DNA of 64,000 nucleotides from Lingula anatina (lineage: Eukaryota > Animalia > Brachiopoda): positions 3,410,001-3,474,000 of the forward strand of contig JBPQGU010000016.1 of the NCBI GenBank assembly GCA_051362555.1, given 5' to 3'. Every line of letters starts with the position of its first letter. Position 1 is the first letter of the stretch. Under the pieces are notes generated by a model that was not told the DNA's origin, searched no databases, and worked only from the letters and a program-made list of their open reading frames with translations. Shown piece by piece: positions 9,001 through 61,389 of the stretch. The position numbers were made by a program, and so were the translations under genes.

Positions 9001-12000
9001 GGCCAAAATTGAAGAAAACTGCCATATCCGGACCTTACGAAAATCACTCAAAATCACCCAAAAATGACCCGTCACCAAATTTTCCAAAAAGTGATGAAAA
9101 TCAATCTACCACACCTGTCATTCATAAAAAATGTGGAAACGCGCCCGGATCACTTCATTAAAGCCCCCAATTTCAGCTTTAAAGATGGCCAAAAAGCACA
9201 CCTGAGAACAGGATTTGGAGAGAGGGGGGGTGGAGAGAGTTTTTGCTCTATTTCTTCCTTAATAATGACACAACCACTCTTCCAGCACTTTATTCTGACT
9301 ACAAATGACCAAACACACCTACCAGACACTATAATGAAGAAAAAAATTTTTCAACCCTACCTGGCCAAAATTGAAGAAAACTGCCATATCCGGACCTTAC
9401 GAAAATCACTCAAAATCACCCAAAAATGACCCGTCACCAAATTTTCCAAAAAGTGATGAAAATCAATCTACCACACCTGTCATTCATAAAAAATGTGGAA
9501 ACGCGCCCGGATCACTTCATTAAAGCCCCCAATTTCAGCTTTAAAGATGGCCAAAAAGCACACCTGAGAACAGGATTTGGAGAGAGAGGGGGTGGAGAGA
9601 GTTTTTGCTCTATTTCTTCCTTAATAATGACACAACCACTCTTCCAGCACTTTATTCTGACTACAAATGACCAAACACACCTACCAGACACTATAATGAA
9701 GAAAAAAATTTTTCAACCCTACCTGGCCAAAATTGAAGAAAACTGCCATATCCGGACCTTACGAAAATCACTCAAAATCACCCAAAAATGACCCGTCACC
9801 AAATTTTCCAAAAAGTGATGAAAATCAATCTACCACACCTGTCATTCATAAAAAATGTGGAAACGCGCCCGGATCACTTCATTAAAGCCCCCAATTTCAG
9901 CTTTAAAGATGGCCAAAAAGCACACCTGAGAACAGGATTTGGAGAGAGGGGGGGTGGAGAGAGTTTTTGCTCTATTTCTTCCTTAATAATGACACAACCA
10001 CTCTTCCAGCACTTTATTCTGACTACAAATGACCAAACACACCTACCAGACACTATAATGAAGAAAAAAATTTTTCAACCCTACCTGGCCAAAATTGAAG
10101 ACAACTGCCATATCCGGACCTTACGAAAATCACTCAAAATCACCCAAAAATGACCCGTCACCAAATTTTCCAAAAAGTGATGAAAATCAATCTACCACAC
10201 CTGTCATTCATAAAAAATGTGGAAACCGCCCGGATCACTTCATTAAAGCCCCCAATTTCAGCTTTAAAGATGGCCAAAAAGCACACCTGAGAACAGGATT
10301 TGGAGAGAGGGGGGGGGTGGAGAGAGTTTTTGCTCTATTTCTTCCTTAATAATGACACAACCACTCTTCCAGCACTTTATTCTGACTACAAATGACCAAA
10401 CACACCTACCAGACACTATAATGAAGAAAAAAATTTTTCAACCCTACCTGGCCAAAATTGAAGAAAACTGCCATATCCGGACCTTACGAAAATCACTCAA
10501 AATCACCCAAAAATGACCCGTCACCAAATTTTCCAAAAAGTGATGAAAATCAATCTACCACACCTGTCATTCATAAAAAATGTGGAAACGCGCCCGGATC
10601 ACTTCATTAAAGCCCCCAATTTCAGCTTTAAAGATGGCCAAAAAGCACACCTGAGAACAGGATTTGGAGAGAGGGGGGGTGGAGAGAGTTTTTGCTCTAT
10701 TTCTTCCTTAATAATGACACAACCACTCTTCCAGCACTTTATTCTGACTACAAATGACCAAACACACCTACCAGACACTATAATGAAGAAAAAAATTTTT
10801 CAACCCTACCTGGCCAAAATTGAAGAAAACTGCCATATCCGGACCTTACGAAAATCACTCAAAATCACCCAAAAATGACCCGTCACCAAATTTTCCAAAA
10901 AGTGATGAAAATCAATCTACCACACCTGTCATTCATAAAAAATGTGGAAACGCGCCCGGATCACTTCATTAAAGCCCCCAATTTCAGCTTTAAAGATGGC
11001 CAAAAAGCACACCTGAGAACAGGATTTGGAGAGAGGGGGGGTGGAGAGAGTTTTTGCTCTATTTCTTCCTTTATAATGACACAACCACTCTTCCAGCACT
11101 TTATTCTGACTACAAATGACCAAACACACCTACCAGACACTATAATGAAGAAAAAAATTTTTCAACCCTACCTGGCCAAAATTGAAGAAAACTGCCATAT
11201 CCGGACCTTACGAAAATCACTCAAAATCACCCAAAAATGACCCGTCACCAAATTTTCCAAAAAGTGATGAAAATCAATCTACCACACCTGTCATTCATAA
11301 AAAATGTGGAAACGCGCCCGGATCACTTCATTAAAGCCCCCAATTTCAGCTTTAAAGATGGCCAAAAAGCACACCTGAGAACAGGATTTGGAGAGAGGGG
11401 GGGTGGAGAGAGTTTTTGCTCTATTTCTTCCTTAATAATGACACAACCACTCTTCCAGCACTTTATTCTGACTACAAATGACCAAACACACCTACCAGAC
11501 ACTATAATGAAGAAAAAAATTTTTCAACCCTACCTGGCCAAAATTGAAGAAAACTGCCATATCCGGACCTTACGAAAATCACTCAAAATCACCCAAAAAT
11601 GACCCGTCACCAAATTTTCCAAAAAGTGATGAAAATCAATCTACCACACCTGTCATTCATAAAAAATGTGGAAACGCGCCCGGATCACTTCATTAAAGCC
11701 CCCAATTTCAGCTTTAAAGATGGCCAAAAAGCACACCTGAGAACAGGATTTGGAGAGAGGGGGGGTGGAGAGAGTTTTTGCTCTATTTCTTCCTTAATAA
11801 TGACACAACCACTCTTCCAGCACTTTATTCTGACTACAAATGACCAAACACACCTACCAGACACTATAATGAAGAAAAAAATTTTTCAACCCTACCTGGC
11901 CAAAATTGAAGAAAACTGCCATATCCGGACCTTACGAAAATCACTCAAAATCACCCAAAAATGACCCGTCACCAAATTTTCCAAAAAGTGATGAAAATCA

Positions 12001-15000
12001 ATCTACCACACCTGTCATTCATAAAAAATGTGGAAACGCGCCCGGATCACTTCATTAAAGCCCCCAATTTCAGCTTTAAAGATGGCCAAAAAGCACACCT
12101 GAGAACAGGATTTGGAGAGAGGGGGGGTGGAGAGAGTTTTTGCTCTATTTCTTCCTTAATAATGACACAACCACTCTTCCAGCACTTTATTCTGACTACA
12201 AATGACCAAACACACCTACCAGACACTATAATGAAGAAAAAAATTTTTCAACCCTACCTGGCCAAAATTGAAGACAACTGCCATATCCGGACCTTACGAA
12301 AATCACTCAAAATCACCCAAAAATGACCCGTCACCAAATTTTCCAAAAAGTGATGAAAATCAATCTACCACACCTGTCATTCATAAAAAATGTGGAAACC
12401 GCCCGGATCACTTCATTAAAGCCCCCAATTTCAGCTTTAAAGATGGCCAAAAAGCACACCTGAGAACAGGATTTGGAGAGAGGGGGGGGGTGGAGAGAGT
12501 TTTTGCTCTATTTCTTCCTTAATAATGACACAACCACTCTTCCAGCACTTTATTCTGACTACAAATGACCAAACACACCTACCAGACACTATAATGAAGA
12601 AAAAAATTTTTCAACCCTACCTGGCCAAAATTGAAGAAAACTGCCATATCCGGACCTTACGAAAATCACTCAAAATCACCCAAAAATGACCCGTCACCAA
12701 ATTTTCCAAAAAGTGATGAAAATCAATCTACCACACCTGTCATTCATAAAAAATGTGGAAACGCGCCCGGATCACTTCATTAAAGCCCCCAATTTCAGCT
12801 TTAAAGATGGCCAAAAAGCACACCTGAGAACAGGATTTGGAGAGAGGGGGGGTGGAGAGAGTTTTTGCTCTATTTCTTCCTTTATAATGACACAACCACT
12901 CTTCCAGCACTTTATTCTGACTACAAATGACCAAACACACCTACCAGACACTATAATGAAGAAAAAAATTTTTCAACCCTACCTGGCCAAAATTGAAGAA
13001 AACTGCCATATCCGGACCTTACGAAAATCACTCAAAATCACCCAAAAATGACCCGTCACCAAATTTTCCAAAAAGTGATGAAAATCAATCTACCACACCT
13101 GTCATTCATAAAAAATGTGGAAACGCGCCCGGATCACTTCATTAAAGCCCCCAATTTCAGCTTTAAAGATGGCCAAAAAGCACACCTGAGAACAGGATTT
13201 GGAGAGAGGGGGGGTGGAGAGAGTTTTTGCTCTATTTCTTCCTTAATAATGACACAACCACTCTTCCAGCACTTTATTCTGACTACAAATGACCAAACAC
13301 ACCTACCAGACACTATAATGAAGAAAAAAATTTTTCAACCCTACCTGGCCAAAATTGAAGAAAACTGCCATATCCGGACCTTACGAAAATCACTCAAAAT
13401 CACCCAAAAATGACCCGTCACCAAATTTTCCAAAAAGTGATGAAAATCAATCTACCACACCTGTCATTCATAAAAAATGTGGAAACGCGCCCGGATCACT
13501 TCATTAAAGCCCCCAATTTCAGCTTTAAAGATGGCCAAAAAGCACACCTGAGAACAGGATTTGGAGAGAGGGGGGGTGGAGAGAGTTTTTGCTCTATTTC
13601 TTCCTTAATAATGACACAACCACTCTTCCAGCACTTTATTCTGACTACAAATGACCAAACACACCTACCAGACACTATAATGAAGAAAAAAATTTTTCAA
13701 CCCTACCTGGCCAAAATTGAAGAAAACTGCCATATCCGGACCTTACGAAAATCACTCAAAATCACCCAAAAATGACCCGTCACCAAATTTTCCAAAAAGT
13801 GATGAAAATCAATCTACCACACCTGTCATTCATAAAAAATGTGGAAACGCGCCCGGATCACTTCATTAAAGCCCCCAATTTCAGCTTTAAAGATGGCCAA
13901 AAAGCACACCTGAGAACAGGATTTGGAGAGAGGGGGGGTGGAGAGAGTTTTTGCTCTATTTCTTCCTTAATAATGACACAACCACTCTTCCAGCACTTTA
14001 TTCTGACTACAAATGACCAAACACACCTACCAGACACTATAATGAAGAAAAAAATTTTTCAACCCTACCTGGCCAAAATTGAAGACAACTGCCATATCCG
14101 GACCTTACGAAAATCACTCAAAATCACCCAAAAATGACCCATCACCAAATTTTCCAAAAAGTGATGAAAATCAATCTACCACACCTGTCATTCATAAAAA
14201 ATGTGGAAACGCGCCCGGATCACTTCATTAAAGCCCCCAATTTCAGCTTTAAAGATGGCCAAAAAGCACACCTGAGAACAGAATTTGGAGAGAGGTGGGG
14301 TGGAGAGAGTTTTTGCTCTATTTCTTCCTTAATAATGACACAACCACTCTTCCAGCACTTTATTCTGACTACAAATGACCAAACACACCTACCAGACACT
14401 ATAATGAAGAAAAAAATTTTTCAACCCTACCTGGCCAAAATTGAAGAAAACTGCCATATCCGGACCTTACGAAAATCACTCAAAATCACCCAAAAATGAC
14501 CCGTCACCAAATTTTCCAAAAAGTGATAAAAATCAATCTACCACACCTGTCATTCATAAAAAATGTGGAAACGCGCCCGGATCACTTCATTAAAGCCCCC
14601 AATTTCAGCTTTAAAGATGGCCAAAAAGCACACCTGAGAACAGGATTTGGAGAGAGGGGGGGTGGAGAGAGTTTTTGCTCTATTTCTTCCTTAATAATGA
14701 CACAACCACTCTTCCAGCACTTTATTCTGACTACAAATGACCAAACACACCTACCAGACACTATAATGAAGAAAAAAATTTTTCAACCCTACCTGGCCAA
14801 AATTGAAGAAAACTGCCATATCCGGACCTTACGAAAATCACTCAAAATCACCCAAAAATGACCCGTCACCAAATTTTCCAAAAAGTGATGAAAATCAATC
14901 TACCACACCTGTCATTCATAAAAAATGTGGAAACGCGCCCGGATCACTTCATTAAAGCCCCCAATTTCAGCTTTAAAGATGGCCAAAAAGCACACCTGAG

Positions 15001-18000
15001 AACAGGATTTGGAGAGAGGGGGGGTGGAGAGAGTTTTTGCTCTATTTCTTCCTTAATAATGACACAACCACTCTTCCAGCACTTTATTCTGACTACAAAT
15101 GACCAAACACACCTACCAGACACTATAATGAAGAAAAAAATTTTTCAACCCTACCTGGCCAAAATTGAAGACAACTGCCATATCCGGACCTTACGAAAAT
15201 CACTCAAAATCACCCAAAAATGACCCGTCACCAAATTTTCCAAAAAGTGATGAAAATCAATCTACCACACCTGTCATTCATAAAAAATGTGGAAACGCGC
15301 CCGGATCACTTCATTAAAGCCCCCAATTTCAGCTTTAAAGATGGCCAAAAAGCACACCTGAGAACAGGATTTGGAGAGAGGGGGGGTGGAGAGAGTTTTT
15401 GCTCTATTTCTTCCTTAATAATGACACAACCACTCTTCCAGCACTTTATTCTGACTACAAATGACCAAACACACCTACCAGACACTATAATGAAGAAAAA
15501 AATTTTTCAACCCTACCTGGCCAAAATTGAAGACAACTGCCATATCCGGACCTTACGAAAATCACTCAAAATCACCCAAAAATGACCCGTCACCAAATTT
15601 TCCAAAAAGTGATGAAAATCAATCTACCACACCTGTCATTCATAAAAAATGTGGAAACGCGCCCGGATCACTTCATTAAAGCCCCCAATTTCAGCTTTAA
15701 AGATGGCCAAAAAGCACACCTGAGAACAGGATTTGGAGAGAGGGGGGGTGGAGAGAGTTTTTGCTCTATTTCTTCCTTAATAATGACACAACCACTCTTC
15801 CAGCACTTTATTCTGACTACAAATGACCAAACACACCTACCAGACACTATAATGAAGAAAAAAATTTTTCAACCCTACCTGGCCAAAATTGAAGAAAACT
15901 GCCATATCCGGACCTTACGAAAATCACTCAAAATCACCCAAAAATGACCCGTCACCAAATTTTCCAAAAAGTGATGAAAATCAATCTACCACACCTGTCA
16001 TTCATAAAAAATGTGGAAACGCGCCCGGATCACTTCATTAAAGCCCCCAATTTCAGCTTTAAAGATGGCCAAAAAGCACACCTGAGAACAGGATTTGGAG
16101 AGAGGGGGGGTGGAGAGAGTTTTTGCTCTATTTCTTCCTTAATAATGACACAACCACTCTTCCAGCACTTTATTCTGACTACAAATGACCAAACACACCT
16201 ACCAGACACTATAATGAAGAAAAAAATTTTTCAACCCTACCTGGCCAAAATTGAAGAAAACTGCCATATCCGGACCTTACGAAAATCACTCAAAATCACC
16301 CAAAAATGACCCGTCACCAAATTTTCCAAAAAGTGATGAAAATCAATCTACCACACCTGTCATTCATAAAAAATGTGGAAACGCGCCCGGATCACTTCAT
16401 TAAAGCCCCCAATTTCAGCTTTAAAGATGGCCAAAAAGCACACCTGAGAACAGGATTTGGAGAGAGGGGGGGTGGAGAGAGTTTTTGCTCTATTTCTTCC
16501 TTAATAATGACACAACCACTCTTCCAGCACTTTATTCTGACTACAAATGACCAAACACACCTACCAGACACTATAATGAAGAAAAAAATTTTTCAACCCT
16601 ACCTGGCCAAAATTGAAGAAAACTGCCATATCCGGACCTTACGAAAATCACTCAAAATCACCCAAAAATGACCCGTCACCAAATTTTCCAAAAAGTGATG
16701 AAAATCAATCTACCACACCTGTCATTCATAAAAAATGTGGAAACGCGCCCGGATCACTTCATTAAAGCCCCCAATTTCAGCTTTAAAGATGGCCAAAAAG
16801 CACACCTGAGAACAGGATTTGGAGAGAGGGGGGGTGGAGAGAGTTTTTGCTCTATTTCTTCCTTAATAATGACACAACCACTCTTCCAGCACTTTATTCT
16901 GACTACAAATGACCAAACACACCTACCAGACACTATAATGAAGAAAAAAATTTTTCAACCCTACCTGGCCAAAATTGAAGAAAACTGCCATATCCGGACC
17001 TTACGAAAATCACTCAAAATCACCCAAAAATGACCCGTCATCAAATTTTCCAAAAAGTGATGAAAATCAATCTACCACACCTGTCATTCATAAAAAATGT
17101 GGAAACGCGCCCGGATCACTTCATTAAAGCCCCCAATTTCAGCTTTAAAGATGGCCAAAAAGCACACCTGAGAAAGGATTTGGAGAGAGGGGGGGTGGAG
17201 AGAGTTTTTGCTCTATTTCTTCCTTAATAATGACACAACCACTCTTCCAGCACTTTATTCTGACTACAAATGACCAAACACACCTACCAGACACTATAAT
17301 GAAGAAAAAAATTTTTCAACCCTACCTGGCCAAAATTGAAGAAAACTGCCATATCCGGACCTTACGAAAATCACTCAAAATCACCCAAAAATGACCCGTC
17401 ACCAAATTTTCCAAAAAGTGATGAAAATCAATCTACCACACCTGTCATTCATAAAAAATGTGGAAACGCGCCCGGATCACTTCATTAAAGCCCCCAATTT
17501 CAGCTTTAAAGATGGCCAAAAAGCACACCTGAGAACAGGATTTGGAGAGAGGGGGGGTGGAGAGAGTTTTTGCTCTATTTCTTCCTTAATAATGACACAA
17601 CCACTCTTCCAGCACTTTATTCTGACTACAAATGACCAAACACACCTACCAGACACTATAATGAAGAAAAAAATTTTTCAACCCTACCTGGCCAAAATTG
17701 AAGAAAACTGCCATATCCGGACCTTACGAAAATCACTCAAAATCACCCAAAAATGACCCGTCACCAAATTTTCCAAAAAGTGATGAAAATCAATCTACCA
17801 CACCTGTCATTCATAAAAAATGTGGAAACGCGCCCGGATCACTTCATTAAAGCCCCCAATTTCAGCTTTAAAGATGGCCAAAAAGCACACCTGAGAACAG
17901 GATTTGGAGAGAGGGGGGGTGGAGAGAGTTTTTGCTCTATTTCTTCCTTAATAATGACACAACCACTCTTCCAGCACTTTATTCTGACTACAAATGACCA

Positions 18001-20528
18001 AACACACCTACCAGACACTATAATGAAGAAAAAAATTTTTCAACCCTACCTGGCCAAAATTGAAGAAAACTGCCATATCCGGACCTTACGAAAATCACTC
18101 AAAATCACCCAAAAATGACCCGTCACCAAATTTTCCAAAAAGTGATGAAAATCAATCTACCACACCTGTCATTCATAAAAAATGTGGAAACGCGCCCGGA
18201 TCACTTCATTAAAGCCCCCAATTTCAGCTTTAAAGATGGCCAAAAAGCACACCTGAGAACAGGATTTGGAGAGAGGGGGGGTGGAGAGAGTTTTTGCTCT
18301 ATTTCTTCCTTAATAATGACACAACCACTCTTCCAGCACTTTATTCTGACTACAAATGACCAAACACACCTACCAGACACTATAATGAAGAAAAAAATTT
18401 TTCAACCCTACCTGGCCAAAATTGAAGAAAACTGCCATATCCGGACCTTACGAAAATCACTCAAAATCACCCAAAAATGACCCGTCACCAAATTTTCCAA
18501 AAAGTGATGAAAATCAATCTACCACACCTGTCATTCATAAAAAATGTGGAAACGCGCCCGGATCACTTCATTAAAGCCCCCAATTTCAGCTTTAAAGATG
18601 GCCAAAAAGCACACCTGAGAACAGGATTTGGAGAGAGGGGGGGTGGAGAGAGTTTTTGCTCTATTTCTTCCTTAATAATGACACAACCACTCTTCCAGCA
18701 CTTTATTCTGACTACAAATGACCAAACACACCTACCAGACACTATAATGAAGAAAAAAATTTTTCAACCCTACCTGGCCAAAATTGAAGAAAACTGCCAT
18801 ATCCGGACCTTACGAAAATCACTCAAAATCACCCAAAAATGACCCGTCACCAAATTTTCCAAAAAGTGATGAAAATCAATCTACCACACCTGTCATTCAT
18901 AAAAAATGTGGAAACGCGCCCGGATCACTTCATTAAAGCCCCCAATTTCAGCTTTAAAGATGGCCAAAAAGCACACCTGAGAACAGGATTTGGAGAGAGG
19001 GGGGGTGGAGAGAGTTTTTGCTCTATTTCTTCCTTAATAATGACACAACCACTCTTCCAGCACTTTATTCTGACTACAAATGACCAAACACACCTACCAG
19101 ACACTATAATGAAGAAAAAAATTTTTCAACCCTACCTGGCCAAAATTGAAGAAAACTGCCATATCCGGACCTTACGAAAATCACTCAAAATCACCCAAAA
19201 ATGACCCGTCATCAAATTTTCCAAAAAGTGATGAAAATCAATCTACCACACCTGTCATTCATAAAAAATGTGGAAACGCGCCCGGATCACTTCATTAAAG
19301 CCCCCAATTTCAGCTTTAAAGATGGCCAAAAAGCACACCTGAGAAAGGATTTGGAGAGAGGGGGGGTGGAGAGAGTTTTTGCTCTATTTCTTCCTTAATA
19401 ATGACACAACCACTCTTCCAGCACTTTATTCTGACTACAAATGACCAAACACACCTACCAGACACTATAATGAAGAAAAAAATTTTTCAACCCTACCTGG
19501 CCAAAATTGAAGAAAACTGCCATATCCGGACCTTACGAAAATCACTCAAAATCACCCAAAAATGACCCGTCACCAAATTTTCCAAAAAGTGATGAAAATC
19601 AATCTACCACACCTGTCATTCATAAAAAATGTGGAAACGCGCCCGGATCACTTCATTAAAGCCCCCAATTTCAGCTTTAAAGATGGCCAAAAAGCACACC
19701 TGAGAACAGGATTTGGAGAGAGGGGGGGTGGAGAGAGTTTTTGCTCTATTTCTTCCTTAATAATGACACAACCACTCTTCCAGCACTTTATTCTGACTAC
19801 AAATGACCAAACACACCTACCAGACACTATAATGAAGAAAAAAATTTTTCAACCCTACCTGGCCAAAATTGAAGAAAACTGCCATATCCGGACCTTACGA
19901 AAATCACTCAAAATCACCCAAAAATGACCCGTCACCAAATTTTCCAAAAAGTGATGAAAATCAATCTACCACACCTGTCATTCATAAAAAATGTGGAAAC
20001 GCGCCCGGATCACTTCATTAAAGCCCCCAATTTCAGCTTTAAAGATGGCCAAAAAGCACACCTGAGAACAGGATTTGGAGAGAGGGGGGGTGGAGAGAGT
20101 TTTTGCTCTATTTCTTCCTTAATAATGACACAACCACTCTTCCAGCACTTTATTCTGACTACAAATGACCAAACACACCTACCAGACACTATAATGAAGA
20201 AAAAAATTTTTCAACCCTACCTGGCCAAAATTGAAGAAAACTGCCATATCCGGACCTTACGAAAATCACTCAAAATCACCCAAAAATGACCCGTCACCAA
20301 ATTTTCCAAAAAGTGATGAAAATCAATCTACCACACCTGTCATTCATAAAAAATGTGGAAACGCGCCCGGATCACTTCATTAAAGCCCCCAATTTCAGCT
20401 TTAAAGATGGCCAAAAAGCACACCTGAGAACAGGATTTGGAGAGAGGGGGGGTGGAGAGAGTTTTTGCTCTATTTCTTCCTTAATAATGACACAACCACT
20501 CTTCCAGCACTTTATTCTGACTACAAAA
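1..20528 (+). repeat. Satellite array, subfamily A, 362-bp monomer (~57 copies; runs off the left edge)
   Basis: Near-identical sequence recurs every 362 bp (ATGACCCGTC at 190, 552, 914...). Variants are sparse SNPs, G7-G9 tract lengths and one 180-bp partial unit at 4898-5077. Confidence 0.99.
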
Positions 20529-20641
20529 TGTAGTGTATTAGCCTATGTATCGTTTACGCGTCACGCCAGGTGTCGCATGACACCTGGTACCATGTGACTT
20601 GACGCGGGAATCTTGAATGTAATAAAGCAGAACTCACAACA
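20529..20641 (+). repeat. 5' LTR (113 bp)
   Basis: TGTAGTG...CACAACA terminal inverted repeat (6/7 match); AATAAA at 20621-20626; 112/113 identical to 26816-26928. Confidence 0.97.
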
Positions 20642-20642
20642 A

Positions 20643-20657
20643 TGGCGACAAGGATGG
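20643..20657 (+). promoter_or_regulatory. Primer binding site, tRNA-Ser(GCU)-like
   Basis: TGGCGACAAGGATGG lies 1 nt after the 5' LTR. It matches 14/15 to the complement of the metazoan tRNA-Ser(GCU) 3' end (TGGCGACGAGGATGG, recalled, not searched). Confidence 0.8.
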
Positions 20658-20702
20658 TCACATTTTATTACGTTGAATGATAATTTTACGATTTTAAACA
20701 AA

Positions 20703-22196
20703 ATGGAGCCTCTATGCTCAAATAAAATTGACAATAGTGGTGAGGAAACACGGATTACACGAATGGAAAACGAAATTAGACACTTAAACTCAAAATTTGA
20801 AGGACTATGTGAAAATGTTTATAAAATGACAGAAGGATTGCAGAAATTTCAAACAGAATTTATCTCATATATGCGACGTGACAATCCATCCTTATTGGAA
20901 AATTCAGCTTCACCCTTGACTCATGCTCAGCAAGGACACATTGAGATAAATGATCCTCATGATGGCCATGCTCCTCCCGGCTCTGATACTTCAACGGAGT
21001 CTTCAACTCATGGTTTAGCTGAGCGAATAAGTTCAAATGCTGATTTTGTACCAGTCCCGGGGCAGCCAGTTGTCAGTGACCCAACCGTGCCAGTGTACCG
21101 TTATGGACGTCAGAATTCTGATCCGAGAGGGCCACATCGACAATTCCGTGAGGATGTACCCACATTCACTCCCACGCAAAGATCGCAGCCAGTGGACACT
21201 CCCCTGTATACTGACGAAAACCGACAACCACCTCCAACAGGTAGGTCATTTCCCATATACAATGAGTCACACATTACCTGCCCCCAGCCGCCCACCCGTT
21301 TTCAATCATATGATGGAAGTACTAACTTCTATTCATATTACGTAAAATTATGTTGCGTTGCTGAGAGCAAGGGATGGGGAGTCAAAGAAATCTACGAAAT
21401 TGTGATCAATTCACTAGAAGGTAAAGCCCTTGACGAGTTTGTAAAACTACCACCTAACGAAAGGATGCACCTGTACAGTGTTGTAGATACCCTCATGAAA
21501 TGTTTCGGAAAAACCGAAAATTCATCCTTGGCGCGAACAGAACTGGCCGCTATAAAACAAAAAGAAAACGAAAGCTATGAGGAATTTGGCTCACGTGTGA
21601 GAATTTTAGCGTTGTCTGCCTACCGTGGTACTGGCCTATTTAATCAAATGGCCACTGAATCGTTTTTACGTGGGTGTTCAGACAAAGATTTAGTGGAAAA
21701 AGTGATGTGCATGAGACCTAGAACATTAGAAGAGGCGGTCGAAAATGCCCGTACGTGTGGCGCAAATATGCAAATTCTGGGGCTACGCAATGAAAATTGT
21801 AGTAAACAACTGCGCAAAGTTACTTTTAAGGAACCCCAGTCTCCATGTACAGATCATATTGAGCGTCAAAATCCACCTAATGTGAGTCGCGTTCAATTTT
21901 CACCTCGTAGCTTGAGTCCTAATCGGAGAAAATCATTTCAGTCAAATGATGCAGAGCAGAGGTTGCAAAAAATTGAATCCTCGTTGTTAGAATTGATTCA
22001 GTTATTCCGTCAGTCCGTGAACCAAACACAAAAGGGCAATGACACTCAGTTCAGTACACCCCCCAGGGGCATCACAAGGTGCTATAATTGCCATGAAATG
22101 GGTCACATAAGCACCAATTGTCCCCAGAAAAACAGTGATTCGTTAAACCGCAACAGGTCGCCTGTGCGGTCCAACAATCGACCTCAGCTGCAGTAG
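20703..22196 (+). CDS. gag: Gag (capsid-like region plus one CCHC zinc knuckle)
   Basis: First in-frame ATG is at 20703 (the track's 20613 start is a TTG inside the LTR). CYNCHEMGHISTNC = CX2CX4HX4C; the LAAIKQKENESYEEFGSRV segment resembles a major homology region. Confidence 0.93.
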   Translation: MEPLCSNKIDNSGEETRITRMENEIRHLNSKFEGLCENVYKMTEGLQKFQTEFISYMRRDNPSLLENSASPLTHAQQGHIEINDPHDGHAPPGSDTSTESSTHGLAERISSNADFVPVPGQPVVSDPTVPVYRYGRQNSDPRGPHRQFREDVPTFTPTQRSQPVDTPLYTDENRQPPPTGRSFPIYNESHITCPQPPTRFQSYDGSTNFYSYYVKLCCVAESKGWGVKEIYEIVINSLEGKALDEFVKLPPNERMHLYSVVDTLMKCFGKTENSSLARTELAAIKQKENESYEEFGSRVRILALSAYRGTGLFNQMATESFLRGCSDKDLVEKVMCMRPRTLEEAVENARTCGANMQILGLRNENCSKQLRKVTFKEPQSPCTDHIERQNPPNVSRVQFSPRSLSPNRRKSFQSNDAEQRLQKIESSLLELIQLFRQSVNQTQKGNDTQFSTPPRGITRCYNCHEMGHISTNCPQKNSDSLNRNRSPVRSNNRPQLQ

Positions 22197-25100
22197 GACC
22201 AAATCTGATCCCACACACTGTTTATTGTAATGGCATGGCCAAAGGTGAAAGTTTAGTGGTCCCCATACATGTCAATGGAATCAAAACTAACGCTGTTATC
22301 GACACAGCAGCGCAAGTGACCATAGTTAGTGACAAGTTGTTATCAGAAATTACTGGAGAAATTACTTACGGCGGGTACCATGACATAAAAGGTATACTGC
22401 AGATTAACTTACGAGCAAGAGAAATAAAAGGCCTAAAATTAGCAATTGGTTCAGAAGTGTATGAATGGACAGTACTTGCTGCTCCTATCCCAGACAATGT
22501 TTTATTGGGTTTAGATTTCTTAAAAATGTTTCAGTGTAACATCTGTCTGGAAAACAATTTCATATCGTTGGCCAGACCAGATCCTTCAAATAGAAGACGA
22601 AACAAAGTTCATGCCTCTATAAGAAAAGGTAGTGACAATTATTTAGTGGCGAATCGTGTCATTTTATCAAAGAAAGTTGCCGTTCCACCGCATTCTGAGA
22701 AGTTTGTTCAAGTCCCCTTTGTTGCGGAAAGGAACAAAACATTTTTACTCAACGCCCCTAAATATGATCAGAAGGGTCTTTCGGTGCCTTATGGGTTGAT
22801 AAGCACCGATTATACGGATGATTGCCTCAGTTGTTCACTCACTCTAAGGAATGAGACTGATAAGTCAATTACCTTAAAAGCAGGTCATGTGATGGGTGAT
22901 TTGGAAGAGATTGAGCGTGTACTGGGATATCCTGAGAGTTTTGATAGTTCAAATGTGCACCAGACTTTCTCGGTGTTGAAAGTTGATGTGAACTCTAACG
23001 ATGTGAAGAATAATATTCCTGAACACGTGATTGATTTGTGGAAACGATCTAGTGAGGATTTGTCTGATGAGCAGTCTCTCAAATTAGGCAATCTTTTGAC
23101 AAAATACGCCGATGTTTTTTCCAAATCTGAATTTGATATCGGCCATTTTACCAAAATTAAACATAGAATTGATACAAACGAAGCAAAGCCTATTAAACAA
23201 AGACTGAGACGCACACCTCTGGGTTTTGAACAAGAGGAAAAAGCTACATTAGATAAATTGTTAGCCGCTGATATTGTGCAACCCTCTTGTTCTGAATGGA
23301 CTTCCCCTCCTGTTTTAGTGAGAAAGAAAGACGGCACTTTGAGATATTGCATAGATTTTCGTGCTTTAAATAAAGTGACCGTCAAGGATGTGTATCCACT
23401 ACCACAGATAGACGAATGCTTAGATGTTTTAGCGGGCACTCGATATTTCAGCACTCTTGATATGAACTGTGCTTATTATCAGGTTGAAGTTGAGGAAAGC
23501 TCCCGGCCTAAAACCGCTTTTATGACCAAGTACGGTTTGTTTGAGTTTAAACGACTACCGTTTGGTTTGACTAACAGCCCTGCTACTTTCATGCGAGCAG
23601 TCAATTCCGTTCTGCATGGTTTGACGTGGAGACAAGTACTCGCTTACTTGGATGATGTTGTTGTGCTTGGGAACAATTTTGATGATTCTATAGCCAATAT
23701 TGCACTGGTGTTGGATAGATTCAAAGAAAATGGATTGAAATTAAAACCATCCAAGTGTTCATTACTCAAAAGGAGTGTTCTCTATTTGGGTAAATTGGTA
23801 GATGAGAATGGCATTGCTCCAAATCCTGACAGTATAAAAGCAGTTCAACGTTGGCCACGTCCAAAATGTAAGAAAGACGTGGAAAGATTTCTTGGTCTAG
23901 TTAATTACCATAGAAGTCACATAAAATGTTTTGCTGCTATGTCTGGTGTACTGTATGATTTGACCAAAAACAAAAGTGTTTTTAATTGGACTAATGAACA
24001 CGAAGTTGCATTCAATGACTTGAAACAGGCTTTGGTCCATAGTCCCGTGCTGAGCTTTCCAGACAGTGATGGTTTATTTATTTTAGACACGGACGCCAGT
24101 GATACTTGTATTGGAGCTGAGCTCATACAGGTGCAAAATGACGCTGAAAAGGTCATTAGTTATGGCAGTTTTGCTCTCACTCCTAGTCAACGTCGTTATT
24201 GCACGACTAAAAAGGAGCTTTTAGCAGTAGTCCGATTTACTCGGCAGTACAGGCACTATCTACTTGGTAGAAAGTTTGTAATACGGACAGATCATTGCAG
24301 TTTGACTTGGATCATGAGTTTTAAATTGCTCAATGGTGTTTTAGCAAGGTGGATGGAGGAATTGGCCCAGTATGATTTCGAAATTCAGCACCGATCGGGT
24401 AAAAACCACAGTAATGCTGATTCGTTGTCACGCATTCCTCTTCAGCACCAAGACTGTAATTACTATGAAGCTGGTTGTGATGTGACAGAGTTACCTTGTG
24501 GAGGCTGTCATCACTGTACCAGGCTTCATGAAGAGTGGGACAGATTTAACAAAGATGTCGATTACATAGGGCCCCTGTCTCTAAGAAGCGTGAAAACTGT
24601 TACACCTGTCGTAGACCCACCCAAGGAAAATACTGGGAATGTTGAATTGTTTGCAAAGTATACAGCAAGTCAACTCAGAGAAGCGCAATTAAAAGATCCT
24701 CACTTATTAAAGGTGATAGGTTGGATTGAGGAAAATGTAAGTCCTTCTCAAGAGGAGTTGCAACTATGCTCGACAGCTGTGAAATTTTTATGGACAAACT
24801 TCAATTTGCTGTCCATGAAAAATGGTGTTTTATATTACAGCAGGTTTGATAAAGGCTCTTTTAACCCTCTTTTGGTATTACCCAAAGAATTTCAACAGGA
24901 AGCCTTATCATTGTGTCATGACCCTGTTATTTCAGGTCATCAGGGGATTGCTCGGACTCTTTCTAAGTTGAGACAAAGTGTTTTTTGGTATGGAATGACT
25001 ACCGACTGCAAACTGTATGTCAGTTCGTGTGTTGCTTGTGAAAAAAATAAAAAGGCAAACAGGAAATTCAGAGCTGAATTGCAAAATTTCCATGCCGGTG

Positions 25101-26080
25101 CACCTTTAGAGAGAGTTCACATAGATATTTTAGGACCACTTACTCCCAGTAAATCAGGGAATAAGTACATTTTAGTTGTCGTGTGTCAGTTCACTAAATG
25201 GGTGGAAGCGTATCCATTACCGGACCAAACTGCAGATACGGTTAGCAAAACATTGGTAAACAATTTCATTGCTAGGTTTGGTTGTCCAACTATCATACAT
25301 TCCGACATGGGTGCCAATTTTACAAGTGAATTGTTTAGTAATGTTTGCAGTTTACTGTCCATTAATAAAACTCAAACCAGTCCGTACAGGCCGAGTTCGA
25401 ATGGCGCCGTCGAGCGTCAGAATAGGACTATCATGCAGTGCATACGGTGTTATTTGGAAGGACAGGACAGTAATTGGGATGAACATTTATCTTTAATTAC
25501 AAGAGCAATCAGGGCGGTCCCTAACAGACAAACAGGTCTGACCCCAAACATGTTGATGTTTGGAAGGGAAACTAGACAGCCCATTGATTTTACGTTTGGT
25601 TTAAAATCTATTAAAGGGGATGTTGAACCAAATAGCTATGTCATGCAATTAAAAGAAAAGCTAGAGAGCGTTCACGAGTTGGCCAGAAAATGTCTCGGCG
25701 AAAATTTAAAGACACAAAAAGCGTACTATGACGCAAATGCCAGACAGACACAATATTGTAAAGGTGACCTAGTGTATAGATATAATAACATGTCAAAACC
25801 CGGTCGTTCAAAGAAATTACAGCCTGTATGGCTCGGTCCCTTCAAAATTATTGAGGTGCTTTCTCCAATTTTGTATAAGATAAAAACAAAAAGAAAAGTT
25901 GTGGTGGTGCATCATGATCACTTAAAACCCTGTAAGGGAAGGGGGGCCCTAAAACCCTCCAAAGCTAAATGTGTGACTCCTAATGTGGGTGATGACCAAC
26001 CACAAGGTGATAGAACTGTCAAAGATGCTGTTGTTACGAGAAGTGGCAGAACAGTTATACCTCCAATACATTATTGTTGA
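22139..26080 (+). CDS. pol: Pol: aspartic protease, reverse transcriptase, RNase H, integrase; -1 frame relative to gag
   Basis: Motifs AVIDTAA (PR), LPFGL and YLDD (RT), TDASD/ELLAVV/RTDH (RH), H-H...CxxC, HIDI, HSDMG, VER and WLGPF (IN). Frame is open from 22139 (after TGA at 22136-22138), overlapping the gag end; first ATG at 22235. Confidence 0.97.
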   Translation, partial: FVKPQQVACAVQQSTSAAVGPNLIPHTVYCNGMAKGESLVVPIHVNGIKTNAVIDTAAQVTIVSDKLLSEITGEITYGGYHDIKGILQINLRAREIKGLKLAIGSEVYEWTVLAAPIPDNVLLGLDFLKMFQCNICLENNFISLARPDPSNRRRNKVHASIRKGSDNYLVANRVILSKKVAVPPHSEKFVQVPFVAERNKTFLLNAPKYDQKGLSVPYGLISTDYTDDCLSCSLTLRNETDKSITLKAGHVMGDLEEIERVLGYPESFDSSNVHQTFSVLKVDVNSNDVKNNIPEHVIDLWKRSSEDLSDEQSLKLGNLLTKYADVFSKSEFDIGHFTKIKHRIDTNEAKPIKQRLRRTPLGFEQEEKATLDKLLAADIVQPSCSEWTSPPVLVRKKDGTLRYCIDFRALNKVTVKDVYPLPQIDECLDVLAGTRYFSTLDMNCAYYQVEVEESSRPKTAFMTKYGLFEFKRLPFGLTNSPATFMRAVNSVLHGLTWRQVLAYLDDVVVLGNNFDDSIANIALVLDRFKENGLKLKPSKCSLLKRSVLYLGKLVDENGIAPNPDSIKAVQRWPRPKCKKDVERFLGLVNYHRSHIKCFAAMSGVLYDLTKNKSVFNWTNEHEVAFNDLKQALVHSPVLSFPDSDGLFILDTDASDTCIGAELIQVQNDAEKVISYGSFALTPSQRRYCTTKKELLAVVRFTRQYRHYLLGRKFVIRTDHCSLTWIMSFKLLNGVLARWMEELAQYDFEIQHRSGKNHSNADSLSRIPLQHQDCNYYEAGCDVTELPCGGCHHCTRLHEEWDRFNKDVDYIGPLSLRSVKTVTPVVDPPKENTGNVELFAKYTASQLREAQLKDPHLLKVIGWIEENVSPSQEELQLCSTAVKFLWTNFNLLSMKNGVLYYSRFDKGSFNPLLVLPKEFQQEALSLCHDPVISGHQGIARTLSKLRQSVFWYGMTTDCKLYVSSCVACEKNKKANRKFRAELQNFHAGAPLERVHIDILGPLTPSKSGNKYILVVVCQFTKWVEAYPLPDQTADTVSKTLVNNFIARFGCPTIIHSDMGANFTSELFSNVCSLLSINKTQTSPYRPSSNGAVERQNRTIMQCIRCYLEGQDSNWDEHLSLITRAIRAVPNRQTGLTPNMLMFGRETRQPIDFTFGLKSIKGDVEPNSYVMQLKEKLESVHELARKCLGENLKTQKAYYDANARQTQYCKGDLVYRYNNMSKPGRSKKLQPVWLGPFKIIEVLSPILYKIKTKRKVVVVHHDHLKPCKGRGALKPSKAKCVTPNVGDDQPQGDRTVKDAVVTRSGRTVIPPIHYC
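22142..22200 (+). promoter_or_regulatory. Predicted -1 ribosomal frameshift signal
   Basis: G_TTA_AAC heptamer in gag phase, 6-nt spacer, stem AGGTCG/CGACCT, and loop GGTCC complementary to downstream GGACC. Confidence 0.75.
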
Positions 26081-26806
26081 GAGGAAGACTCAGAACTAAT
26101 GAGGTTATTATTAACAGATGTGACAGCGATATCCACTACAATACGTTATGCCAAGGACAATTTACTGAGATAATGGGACATTTTCTGTGAACTCTATTGA
26201 CTTTGAACCGAACATTGACTATGTTTTACATACATATATTGGCTACATTATACTGAGCCTGTATTTGCATTCAATATTCTATTCATACAAGTGACACAAT
26301 TATATGTCGTTCACTTTATCAAGGCATTTGTAAAAGTTGTTTGTATTCTGAAGCTGTTTGGATGCACAGTACAGTCTTGTGAGTAAAGTGCATGTGTCAT
26401 GTTGATAATGCAGATTTAGCATAATTAGTAAAGTTCATATGTGCCGTTTATGCAGTAATGTATGCACATTTATATATAAAAAATATGGGACTTGAAAGTA
26501 TGCACTGTTTAACACAACATGTTACCTTAGTTATAAGGAAATAATGTATTTATATGTGCCGTTAATATGTAATGTATATGCACAATTATTATTTACTATG
26601 CACAAAAATAGATCTCATTATCATTAACTGTGCTGATGTAAGGCATACAATACATATAACATTGTCATTTAAAGCAAGGGTTGACTAAGATGCTGTTGAT
26701 AAAGTGTAATCCGTATGTATGTTAAAGTTATGTCAACAATTGTAATTAATTCACACTTATCTTAATTATCAGTGGTTTATATATAAGCATGTATTGAAAA
26801 TATGAT

Positions 26807-26815
26807 GGGGAGGAA
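26807..26815 (+). promoter_or_regulatory. Polypurine tract
   Basis: GGGGAGGAA immediately precedes the TG of the 3' LTR. Confidence 0.9.
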
Positions 26816-26928
26816 TGTAGTGTATTAGCCTATGTATCGTTTACGCGTCACGCCAGGTGTCGCATGACACCTGGTACCATGTGACTTGATGCGGGAATCT
26901 TGAATGTAATAAAGCAGAACTCACAACA
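26816..26928 (+). repeat. 3' LTR (113 bp)
   Basis: Copy of the 5' LTR with one C/T difference (20603 vs 26890) at a CpG. Confidence 0.97.
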
Positions 26929-29900
26929 AAAGGACCAAACACACCAACCAGACACTATAATGAAGAAAAAAATTTTTCAACCCTACCTGGCCAAAATTGA
27001 AGAAAACTGCCATATCCGGACCTTACGAAAATCACTCAAAATCACCCAAAAATGACCCGTCACCAAATTTTCCAAAAAAGTGATGAAAATCAATCTACCA
27101 CACCTGTCATTCATAAAAAATGTGGAAACGCGCCCGGATCACTTCATTAAAGCCCCCAATTTCAGCTTTAAAGATGGCCAAAAAGCACACCTGAGAACAG
27201 GATTTGGAGAGAGGGGGGGTGGAGAGAGTTTTTGCTCTATTTCTTCCTTAATAATGACACAACCACTCTTCCAGCACTTTATTCTGACTACAAATGACCA
27301 AACACACCTACCAGACACTATAATGAAGAAAAAAATTTTTCAACCCTACCTGGCCAAAATTGAAGAAAACTGCCATATCCGGACCTTACGAAAATCACTC
27401 AAAATCACCCAAAAATGACCCGTCACCAAATTTTCCAAAAAGTGATGAAAATCAATCTACCACACCTGTCATTCATAAAAAATGTGGAAACGCGCCCGGA
27501 TCACTTCATTAAAGCCCCCAATTTCAGCTTTAAAGATGGCCAAAAAGCACACCTGAGAACAGGATTTGGAGAGAGGGGGGGTGGAGAGAGTTTTTGCTCT
27601 ATTTCTTCCTTAATAATGACACAACCACTCTTCCAGCACTTTATTCTGACTACAAATGACCAAACACACCTACCAGACACTATAATGAAGAAAAAAATTT
27701 TTCAACCCTACCTGGCCAAAATTGAAGAAAACTGCCATATCCGGACCTTACGAAAATCACTCAAAATCACCCAAAAATGACCCGTCACCAAATTTTCCAA
27801 AAAGTGATGAAAATCAATCTACCACACCTGTCATTCATAAAAAATGTGGAAACGCGCCCGGATCACTTCATTAAAGCCCCCAATTTCAGCTTTAAAGATG
27901 GCCAAAAAGCACACCTGAGAACAGGATTTGGAGAGAGGGGGGGTGGAGAGAGTTTTTGCTCTATTTCTTCCTTAATAATGACACAACCACTCTTCCAGCA
28001 CTTTATTCTGACTACAAATGACCAAACACACCTACCAGACACTATAATGAAGAAAAAAATTTTTCAACCCTACCTGGCCAAAATTGAAGAAAACTGCCAT
28101 ATCCGGACCTTACGAAAATCACTCAAAATCACCCAAAAATGACCCGTCACCAAATTTTCCAAAAAGTGATGAAAATCAATCTACCACACCTGTCATTCAT
28201 AAAAAATGTGGAAACGCGCCCGGATCACTTCATTAAAGCCCCCAATTTCAGCTTTAAAGATGGCCAAAAAGCACACCTGAGAACAGGATTTGGAGAGAGG
28301 GGGGGGTGGAGAGAGTTTTTGCTCTATTTCTTCCTTAATAATGACACAACCACTCTTCCAGCACTTTATTCTGACTACAAATGACCAAACACACCTACCA
28401 GACACTATAATGAAGAAAAAAATTTTTCAACCCTACCTGGCCAAAATTGAAGAAAACTGCCATATCCGGACCTTACGAAAATCACTCAAAATCACCCAAA
28501 AATGACCCGTCACCAAATTTTCCAAAAAGTGATGAAAATCAATCTACCACACCTGTCATTCATAAAAAATGTGGAAACGCGCCCGGATCACTTCATTAAA
28601 GCCCCCAATTTCAGCTTTAAAGATGGCCAAAAAGCACACCTGAGAACAGGATTTGGAGAGAGGGGGGGTGGAGAGAGTTTTTGCTCTATTTCTTCCTTAA
28701 TAATGACACAACCACTCTTCCAGCACTTTATTCTGACTACAAATGACCAAACACACCTACCAGACACTATAATGAAGAAAAAAATTTTTCAACCCTACCT
28801 GGCCAAAATTGAAGAAAACTGCCATATCCGGACCTTACGAAAATCACTCAAAATCACCCAAAAATGACCCGTCACCAAATTTTCCAAAAAGTGATGAAAA
28901 TCAATCTACCACACCTGTCATTCATAAAAAATGTGGAAACGCGCCCGGATCACTTCATTAAAGCCCCCAATTTCAGCTTTAAAGATGGCCAAAAAGCACA
29001 CCTGAGAACAGGATTTGGAGAGAGGGGGGGTGGAGAGAGTTTTTGCTCTATTTCTTCCTTAATAATGACACAACCACTCTTCCAGAACTTTATTCTGACT
29101 ACAAATGACCAAACACACCTACCAGACACTATAATGAAGAAAAAAATTTTTCAACCCTACCTGGCCAAAATTGAAGAAAACTGCCATATCCGGACCTTAC
29201 GAAAATCACTCAAAATCACCCAAAAATGACCCGTCACCAAATTTTCCAAAAAGTGATGAAAATCAATCTACCACACCTGTCATTCATAAAAAATGTGGAA
29301 ACGCGCCCGGATCACTTCATTAAAGCCCCCAATTTCAGCTTTAAAGATGGCCAAAAAGCACACCTGAGAACAGGATTTGGAGAGAGGGGGGGTGGAGAGA
29401 GTTTTTGCTCTATTTCTTCCTTAATAATGACACAACTACTCTTCCAGCACTTTATTCTGACTACAAATGACCAAACACACCTACCAGACCCTATAATGAA
29501 GAAAAAAATTTTTCAACCCTACCTGGCCAAAATTGAAGAAAACTGCCATATCCGGACCTTACGAAAATCACTCAAAATCACCCAAAAATGACCCGTCACC
29601 AAATTTTCCAAAAAGTGATGAAAATCAATCTACCACACCTGTCATTCATAAAAAATGTGGAAACGCGCCCGGATCACTTCATTAAAGCCCCCAATTTCAG
29701 CTTTAAAGATGGCCAAAAAGCACACCTGAGAACAGGATTTGGAGAGAGGGGGGGTGGAGAGAGTTTTTGCTCTATTTCTTCCTTAATAATGACACAACCA
29801 CTCTTCCAGCACTTTATTCTGACTACAAATGACCAAACACACCTACCAGACACTATAATGAAGAAAAAAATTTTTCAACCCTACCTGGCCAAAATTGAAG

Positions 29901-30409
29901 AAAACTGCCATATCCGGACCTTACGAAAATCACTCAAAATCACCCAAAAATGACCCGTCACCAAATTTTCCAAAAAGTGATGAAAATCAATCTACCACAC
30001 CTGTCATTCATAAAAAATGTGGAAACGCGCCCGGATCACTTCATTAAAGCCCCCAATTTCAGCTTTAAAGATGGCCAAAAAGCACACCTGAGAACAGGAT
30101 TTGGAGAGAGGGGGGGTGGAGAGAGTTTTTGCTCTATTTCTTCCTTAATAATGACACAACCACTCTTCCAGCACTTTATTCTGACTACAAATGACCAAAC
30201 ACACCTACCAGACACTATAATGAAGAAAAAAATTTTTCAACCCTACCTGGCCAAAATTGAAGAAAACTGCCATATCCGGACCTTACGAAAATCACTCAAA
30301 ATCACCCAAAAATGACCCGTCACCAAATTTTCCAAAAAGTGATGAAAATCAATCTACCACACCTGTCATTCATAAAAAATGTGGAAACGCGCCCGGATCA
30401 CTTCATTAA
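26929..30409 (+). repeat. Satellite array, subfamily A continued (~9.6 copies)
   Basis: Same 362-bp unit and orientation as 1-20528. Confidence 0.99.
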
Positions 30410-58516: not shown

Positions 58517-58599
58517 TGTACCATGAAAATTTGACTCCCCTAAAATGTGACTCCCCAGTCAGATTTTCATTATGAAAATCTGACTCCCCAGTCAGATTT

Positions 58600-61300: not shown

Positions 61301-61389
61301 TATGAAAATCTGACTGGGGAGTCACATTTTCATAATGAAAATCTGACTGGGGAGTCACATTTTCATGGGAGTCATATTTTCATGTTACA

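What the first reader, a model, noticed from the sequence alone, without database searches (positions are those of the whole stretch)
26030..26080. Integrase C-terminal peptide has CENP-C-motif spacing: candidate centromere-targeting retrotransposon
Seen: Pol lacks a recognisable chromodomain and ends, after a ~30-aa linker, in VVTRSGRTVIPPIHYC. Known (recalled): CENP-C binds CENP-A nucleosomes through an arginine anchor with P at +5 and aromatics at +8/+9 (human central region TVTKSRRISRRPSDWW; CENP-C motif VRRTKRTRLKPLEYW), and KSHV LANA uses LRSGR on the H2A-H2B acidic patch. Here the second R has P at +5 and Y at +8 with no gaps. Inference: the tail tethers the intasome to nucleosomes, perhaps CENP-A nucleosomes, which would explain a fresh insertion deep in a homogeneous satellite. 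Caveats: the second aromatic is C, TRSGR..PP tails are common among Gypsy integrases, and there is only one insertion here.
Basis: partly seen in the sequence, partly recalled or inferred. Interest (0 to 1): 0.8.

Follow-up and report, generated by a model that had tools for sequence, protein, structure and literature searches.

The report
Gypsy integrase's arginine-rich docking tail

Summary
The peptide is real: Pol of an intact Ty3/Gypsy element (20529-26928; 113-bp LTRs, 1 mismatch) ends in VVTRSGRTVIPPIHYC, with no chromodomain, inside a 99.7%-homogeneous 362-bp satellite. But the tail is a clade trait, not a special CENP-C mimic. RxxRxxxxP occurs in 96 of 185 distinct relative tails (shuffled mean 11), mostly at the very end. 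The half of CENP-C that reads CENP-A is missing: no aromatic pair at +8/+9 here or in any relative (0 of 185), and this protein stops at +9, before residues that human CENP-C needs. In public runs the five LTR flanks that could be seen were non-satellite, and no LTR-satellite joint was listed (lists cut, method biased against satellite junctions). The nearest relatives put a zf-CW reader before the same motif; 19 others end in a PHD-like finger and lack it. Best reading (about 0.5): a generic arginine-anchor nucleosome tether, perhaps doubling as a nuclear localisation signal. CENP-A-specific targeting: about 0.07. Binding is untested, and whether the satellite is centromeric is unknown.

The parts
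20529..20641 (+). 5' LTR, 113 bp, TG...CA
   Evidence: 1 mismatch against the 3' LTR
20643..20657 (+). primer binding site, one base after the 5' LTR (tRNA type not tested; resembles tRNA-Ser from recall)
20703..22196 (+). gag ORF (first in-frame ATG; frame open from 20598); Retrotrans_gag-like region below cut-off, zinc knuckle above cut-off
22139..26080 (+). pol ORF, 1313 codons, uninterrupted, overlapping gag in the -1 frame: protease, RT, RNase H, integrase
25763..25930 (+). integrase GPF / SH3-like C-terminal domain (residues 1209-1264)
   Evidence: PF22938 E 9.7e-09, PF24626 E 3.9e-06 (below its cut-off)
25931..26029 (+). linker of about 33 residues, no Pfam match, not conserved among relatives
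26030..26080 (+). terminal arginine-rich motif VVTRSGRTVIPPIHYC-stop; R1301 at 26039, R1304 at 26048, P1309 at 26063, Y1312 at 26072
26807..26815 (+). polypurine tract
26816..26928 (+). 3' LTR, 113 bp
1..20528 (+). 362-bp satellite, variant A, left of the element; its last 4 bases are the left copy of an in-register but imperfect 4-bp target duplication
26929..30409 (+). 362-bp satellite, variant A, right of the element, ending at a head-to-head junction with variant B

Best explanation
This is an intact Ty3/Gypsy retrotransposon whose integrase ends in a clade-wide RxxRxxxxP tail, and that tail likely works as a general nucleosome tether rather than a CENP-A reader. Shown: the element's anatomy, the motif's conservation and terminal position, and its neighbours in the tree. 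Inferred: the unstructured linker lets the tail reach out from the integration complex; one of its two arginines (R1301 in the LANA-like register, R1304 in the CENP-C-like register) would insert into the H2A-H2B acidic patch while the proline and the H/Y pair pack on the histone surface; this would hold the complex on chromatin of any kind, and site choice would be sharpened in relatives by a zf-CW reader placed just before the motif or replaced by a PHD finger. The same basic stretch may also serve nuclear import. The insertion in this satellite would then be a tolerated landing in a very large target, not proof of centromere aiming.
For: Motif in 96 of 185 distinct relative tails of 35-450 aa (85 within the last 30 residues), shuffled mean 11.0, maximum 19 of 200 shuffles; stricter RxxRxxxxP-x-[basic/aromatic]-[L/aromatic] in 76 of 185, shuffled 0.2, while the linker before it is variable in length and sequence. 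Whole-protein alignment of 38 motif-bearing Pols (chosen for the motif) puts R1301, R1304, P1309 of this protein in register with them. The vertebrate CENP-C motif also begins RxxRxxxxP (PMC4830207, passages), and its arginines bind the acidic patch, a feature shared with other nucleosome binders (PMC6776904, passages). Viral tethers of genomes and pre-integration complexes (LANA, IE1, foamy Gag, probably MLV p12) use short arginine-anchor peptides on the same patch (PMC9040877 and PMC6021111, passages). In an integrase-core tree of 233 proteins this one groups (local support 0.91) with 4 proteins that carry zf-CW plus the motif and one without either; 19 PHD-like tails all lack the motif (zf-CW confirmed by Pfam in 4 of 4, PHD in 4 of 4 tested). 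Other LTR copies seen in public runs have non-satellite flanks, as a general tether would give.
Against: No binding measurement exists. Arginine-rich tails are also what nuclear localisation signals and DNA-gripping tails look like, and the Tal1/EVD targeting residue lies in a predicted NLS (PMC11735389 supplement 1). 89 of 185 long tails lack the pattern and 51 more tails are shorter than 35 residues, so the motif is dispensable in many lineages (some may be cut gene models). The PHD tails form about two groups on the tree (4 parsimony changes), so their exclusion of the motif rests on few independent events. This copy lacks the K/R at +3 (71 of 96 relatives) and the D/E-Y ending at +10/+11 (53 and 48 of 96), so it is a shortened member and could be weakened. 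LANA's and foamy Gag's hydrophobic residue just before the anchor is a threonine here.
Confidence: 0.5

Rival explanations
1. The tail is a nuclear localisation signal or a non-specific basic DNA-gripping tail; the resemblance to nucleosome binders reflects shared arginine richness.
For: Family consensus is rich in R/K at -3, 0, +2, +3, +7. The critical K/R of Tal1/EVD lies in a predicted NLS, and the Ty1 targeting region overlaps its NLS (PMC11735389 supplement 1).
Against: The fixed proline at +5, glycine at -1 (61 of 96), L/aromatic at +8 (80 of 96) and aromatic at +11 (48 of 96) point to a shaped binding site; this copy has only two arginines in the motif, thin for a classical NLS (from established knowledge of NLS patterns, not tested). 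The two roles are not exclusive.
Confidence: 0.27
2. The tail binds some other host protein (a chromatin or transcription factor), as Ty1, Ty5 and MLV integrase tails do, or is a decaying remnant in this copy after loss of the zf-CW reader.
For: Integrase tails are known short protein-binding modules (PMC12159745, passages). This copy has lost the conserved stretch after the C-terminal domain and the CW domain that its nearest relatives have, and stops two residues short of the family ending.
Against: A motif kept across a clade with named members in molluscs and a fish suits a very conserved partner such as histones. Contigs of three other samples cover the tail with 1-2 differences in 337-488 bases, and the frame is intact.
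Confidence: 0.16
3. One reading: the tail mimics the CENP-C motif, reads CENP-A nucleosomes and aims the element at centromeres.
For: R-3, R0, P+5 and Y+8 match the published pattern RxxRxxxxPLxYWxGERxxY. The copy is young (LTRs 112 of 113 alike) and sits in a very homogeneous, very abundant satellite. Integrase C-termini do aim Tal1 and CRM elements at centromeres (PMC11735389, PMC3059260, passages), and young LTR elements invade satellite centromeres across animals (bioRxiv 10.64898/2026.09.17.752431, passages). The host's CENP-A tail is unknown and could suit a different peptide.
Against: W/aromatic at +9 is C; mutating R, Y or W of the core lowers CENP-C binding; human W530-W531 plus V532-V533 give the CENP-A contact and V533D abolishes it, whereas this protein ends at +9. 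Aromatic pair in 0 of 185 relatives (shuffled 0.3), W at +9 in 0 of 96, acid at +7 in 0 of 96, Y/W/F at +8 in 34 of 96: Y+8 is a common family state. Five LTR flanks seen in four samples were non-satellite; none of 11 joints listed joins an LTR end to the satellite. Tal1's switch arginine, read by eye from the paper's primers, is not followed by proline at +5. The satellite is not shown to be centromeric.
Confidence: 0.07

Closest known systems
Non-chromovirus Ty3/Gypsy LTR retrotransposons of aquatic animals (named hits: Mytilus edulis, Nucella lapillus, Brachyhypopomus gauderio 'transposon 412-like' Pol)
   Same: gag then -1 pol with PR-RT-RH-IN order, GPF module, TG...CA LTRs, PBS, PPT; integrase 38-55% identical; same terminal RxxRxxxxP tail in about half of long tails.
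   Different: Very short LTRs (113 bp); tail shortened: no P-x-W-rich stretch after the C-terminal domain, no zf-CW, no D-Y ending. Clade name not assigned here.
CENP-C motif and CENP-C central region (also M18BP1/KNL2)
   Same: RxxRxxxxP frame and an aromatic at +8 (PMC4830207).
   Different: No W at +9, no L/acid at +6/+7, no GERxxY or V-V extension; protein ends at +9; G at -1 is typical of the Gypsy family and not part of the published CENP-C pattern.
Viral acidic-patch tethers: KSHV LANA, HCMV IE1, foamy virus Gag CBS, MLV p12
   Same: Short, probably unstructured arginine peptide on a protein that must hold a viral genome or integration complex on chromatin (PMC9040877, PMC6021111).
   Different: Here it is on the integrase C-terminus of an LTR retrotransposon; the review's main text does not mention retrotransposons (0 occurrences). 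Binding untested.
Centrophilic retrotransposons: Tal1 (Copia ALE4) and CRM chromoviruses with the CR motif
   Same: Integrase C-terminus as the likely targeting part; a young copy inside a satellite array.
   Different: Those have copy-level or de novo evidence of centromere enrichment; this has one copy, and the other flanks seen are non-satellite. Tal1's R892 context differs.
Reader-tipped retrotransposons (chromodomain, PHD, MBD)
   Same: Relatives in the same clade carry PHD or zf-CW after the integrase; retrotransposon PHD fingers are described as widespread (PMC6673714, passages).
   Different: This element has no folded reader; zf-CW on Gypsy integrases was not found in my two searches.

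Membership tests
Ty3/Gypsy LTR retrotransposon | pol order protease-RT-RNase H-integrase | tested here: met
Ty3/Gypsy LTR retrotransposon | paired TG...CA LTRs, PBS, PPT | tested here: met
Ty3/Gypsy LTR retrotransposon | target-site duplication | tested here: inconclusive
   4 satellite positions are duplicated in register, but the copies read AAAA and AAAG where the satellite has AAAT
Chromovirus | chromodomain or CR motif after the GPY/F module | tested here: not met
   no chromodomain by Pfam; tail only about 50 residues. CR motif not scanned with a profile.
CENP-C motif | RxxR with anchor arginine and proline at +5 | tested here: met
   R1301, R1304, P1309 against RxxRxxxxP
CENP-C motif | aromatic at +8 | tested here: met
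   Y1312; also in 34 of 96 motif-bearing relatives
CENP-C motif | tryptophan at +9 (YW or WW pair) | tested here: not met
   C1313; pair in 0 of 185 relatives
CENP-C motif | downstream GERxxY, or hydrophobic +10/+11 extension of the central region | tested here: not met
   protein ends at +9
CENP-C motif | match to a CENP-C family profile or solved CENP-C chain | tested here: inconclusive
   no Pfam match and no PDB match for the last 30 residues at E up to 10; such short queries have little power
CENP-C motif | binds CENP-A nucleosomes better than H3 nucleosomes | not testable with these tools
   needs the host's CENP-A and biochemistry
Acidic-patch arginine-anchor tether (LANA, foamy Gag type) | arginine anchor with hydrophobic residues at -1 and -3 | tested here: inconclusive
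   for R1301: V at -3, T at -1; LANA has M6/L8, foamy Gag Y537/L539
Acidic-patch arginine-anchor tether (LANA, foamy Gag type) | binding lost on acidic-patch-mutant nucleosomes | not testable with these tools
   bench assay needed
Centrophilic retrotransposon (Tal1, CRM group A) | copies enriched in the centromeric satellite or CENP-A chromatin | tested here: inconclusive
   5 of 5 other flanks seen are non-satellite, no LTR-satellite joint listed, but lists were cut and short-read contigs lose satellite junctions
Centrophilic retrotransposon (Tal1, CRM group A) | host satellite is the centromere | not testable with these tools
   no genome held; literature search for a 362-bp satellite gave nothing matching by listing

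The most novel reading that the evidence does not exclude
A large clade of animal Gypsy integrases carries the acidic-patch half of the CENP-C motif as a swappable docking module (alone, behind a zf-CW reader, or replaced by a PHD finger), and this shortened, reader-less variant has been tuned to the host's CENP-A tail so that new copies go to centromeres: an animal centrophilic retrotransposon working by CENP-C mimicry.
Probability: 0.07. Interest if true: 0.8.

Novelty: new variant of a known kind. Interest (0 to 1): 0.36.

Why it matters
How LTR elements without a chromodomain find chromatin is largely open, and the partner of centromere-aiming integrase tails is unknown even for Tal1. If the RxxRxxxxP tail is an acidic-patch anchor, about half of a big animal Gypsy clade would have a defined, cheaply testable docking mechanism, parallel to LANA and foamy Gag but on the integrase, with zf-CW and PHD variants as natural comparisons. 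I found no paper stating this in the held library (searches; zf-CW/PHD), which lacks most subscription journals. The element itself is an ordinary member of its clade, and the centromere claim is weak.

Tried and rejected
Complex prediction of the last 32 residues with an animal H2A-H2B pair taken from a metagenome locus: no verdict (scores 0.30 and 0.23, mark 0.34; alignments not used, controls not folded, peptides are outside the tool's calibration); it is no evidence either way. No whole genome is held, so copies could not be mapped. Pfam and PDB searches with the tail alone found nothing. tblastn of relative tails on 25921-26815 found only the motif itself, no CW or PHD remnant in the 3' untranslated part (best 15 rows shown). 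The 362-bp unit has no internal 181-bp halves (best self-identity 33%). One chimaeric protein with a Copia-type RT start showed no motif upstream (1 of 1), so the idea that Copia tails share the motif stays recall only. Cluster look-up of 10 relatives gave no names. Earlier-findings searches gave nothing on this sequence. Summed contig depths were not used as copy numbers. No profile of the family motif was run against solved peptides, so which solved binder it most resembles stays open.

Full report
What is there. The window is almost all one 362-bp satellite family. An LTR retrotransposon interrupts it at 20529-26928: two 113-bp TG...CA repeats differing at one base, a primer binding site one base after the first, a polypurine tract before the second, a gag frame and an uninterrupted 1313-codon pol frame overlapping it in -1. 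Pfam gives protease, RT, RNase H, H2C2, integrase core and a GPF/SH3-type C-terminal domain, the Gypsy order, with no chromodomain. The satellite units either side are 99.7-99.8% alike (55 and 9 units). Four satellite positions are duplicated in register at the insertion, but both copies differ from the satellite at the fourth base; I cannot say whether that is repair or assembly error. The flagged 17 codons read VVTRSGRTVIPPIHYC-stop.

Is the tail special? I collected relatives with two searches: the best 120 of 177 hits for the integrase region and the best 150 representatives, 270 proteins with the query. Of these 253 aligned through the C-terminal domain (17 dropped), 242 tails were distinct, and after removing the query, 5 tails over 450 residues and 51 under 35 residues, 185 were counted. 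RxxRxxxxP is in 96 of 185 (85 in the last 30 residues; shuffled mean 11.0, maximum 19); [TS]RxGRxxxxP in 60 (shuffled 0.1). Among the 96: G at -1 in 61, K/R at +3 in 71, basic or aromatic at +7 in 81, L at +8 in 46, Y/W/F at +8 in 34, D/E at +10 in 53, aromatic at +11 in 48; acid at +7 in 0, W at +9 in 0. This element's H-Y at +7/+8 is a normal family state ([RHK]Y in 20 of 96). It is a shortened member: no K/R at +3 and no D-Y ending.

Against CENP-C. Kral gives the vertebrate motif as RxxRxxxxPLxYWxGERxxY and reports that mutating R, Y or W lowers binding (PMC4830207, passages). In the human central-region structure R521/R522 bind the acidic patch, a contact shared with other nucleosome binders, while W530-W531 and V532-V533 make the CENP-A contact; V533D abolishes binding (PMC6776904, passages; review PMC7475651 and PMC13021935, passages, agree on the two-part scheme). 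The caveat is that the host's CENP-A tail is unknown.

What sits in the same place in relatives. In a FastTree of the integrase core of 233 proteins this one groups, local support 0.91, with four proteins that carry a zf-CW domain followed by the same motif, and one with neither; 19 tails hold a PHD-like finger and none of them has the motif; 50 tails are short. Pfam confirms zf-CW in 4 of 4 and PHD in 4 of 4 tested. The PHD tails fall into about two groups, so this is few independent events. Still, the tail position behaves as a slot for chromatin-binding parts, which fits integrase C-termini as targeting regions in Tal1 (PMC11735389, passages and supplement 1 part 1) and CRM elements (PMC3059260, passages) and retrotransposon-borne chromodomain, PHD and MBD readers (PMC6673714, passages).

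Where other copies sit. No genome is held. Ten public DNA runs of one organism hold the element or part of it. I laid 6 of them as contigs in two calls. With a full satellite unit and the LTR as target (4 runs, 85% likeness), none of the 11 joints listed links an LTR end to the satellite; one X4 contig leaves the LTR end into 255 or more letters that lie on nothing in the target, and one X1 contig carries a whole LTR with 534 further letters on its 3' side (tables 5, 7, 8; the reading of that record is my inference). In the first call, which held only 49 bases of satellite, X2 and X3 show three more LTR flanks that by eye do not resemble the satellite. That is 5 non-satellite flanks in 4 samples and none in satellite. 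It is weak: 83 and 219 loose-end rows were not shown, short-read contigs tend to lose junctions inside a very high-copy repeat (this window's own junction is not among the listed pieces), and the flanks may belong to solo LTRs or older subfamilies. Contigs of three samples cover the tail region with 1-2 differences in 337-488 bases, so the tail is the family's normal form. Young LTR elements inside satellite arrays are common across animals (bioRxiv 10.64898/2026.09.17.752431, passages; its supplements were not seen). Whether this satellite is centromeric is untested; a search for a 362-bp satellite gave no fitting paper by its listing.

Mechanism. Rivals: import signal or DNA-gripping tail (0.27), another host partner or a decaying remnant (0.16), CENP-A-specific mimic (0.07). 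Tal1 is the best precedent for the last, but its switch arginine, read by eye from the mutagenesis primers (supplement 5), is followed by V-Y-F-N-Q with no proline at +5; the figure with the full Tal1 sequence is an image that I could not see, so a similar motif further upstream is not excluded.

Novelty. The element is an ordinary Gypsy. The reading of the clade-wide tail as a nucleosome anchor was not found in the held library: (arginine anchor + integrase + LTR retrotransposon) and one search gave 0 papers; two searches listed 8 and 2 papers, none on this by title and abstract start (one, PMC12159745, read in passages has 'acidic patch' only in a reference title). PMC12859917 and PMC5408684 were read in passages and add nothing on the motif. 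An integrase-borne anchor would be a new variant of a known kind; it remains a hypothesis. Interest 0.36.

Noticed in passing
relatives P0002, P0003, P0005, P0007 (and P0004); PHD group e.g. P0142, P0147, P0175, P0182: Gypsy integrases ending in a zf-CW histone reader followed by the arginine motif, and others ending in a PHD finger instead; zf-CW on LTR integrases was not found in two paper searches. Possibly more interesting than the flagged copy.
   Followed up: partly
window 30409/30410: Head-to-head junction between two satellite variants, each 99.5-99.8% homogeneous but only 87% alike, 3.5 kb from the element.
   Followed up: partly
window 58517-61389: A 2.9-kb foldback-type insertion with TG...CA ends, about 860-bp inverted arms 87% alike built of 184-bp repeats, flanked by a perfect CCGG duplication at the centre of a palindrome in satellite variant B.
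   Followed up: partly
window 20525-20528 and 26929-26932, 26940-26951: Both copies of the target duplication differ from the satellite at the same base, and a second change lies about 20 bases into the right flank; neither variant occurs in other units of the window.
   Followed up: partly
window 20800-23200 versus 23300-26700: Contigs of other samples differ from this copy by about 3-4% in gag and protease but about 0.5% in RT, integrase and the 3' part, which suggests a mosaic of subfamilies (table 8, longest pieces only).
   Followed up: no
window 4777-5319: A roughly 183-bp partial duplication inside one satellite unit.
   Followed up: no
relatives P0059-P0064, P0069-P0072, P0075, P0077, P0081, P0084, P0099, P0106, P0109, P0114: A subgroup in which the motif is followed in frame by 150-350 further residues with Cys/His zinc-finger-like patterns.
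   Followed up: no
window 24470-24560 (Pol residues about 775-805): A cysteine-rich stretch between RNase H and integrase (C-x2-Y...LPCGGC-x2-C) with no Pfam match.
   Followed up: no
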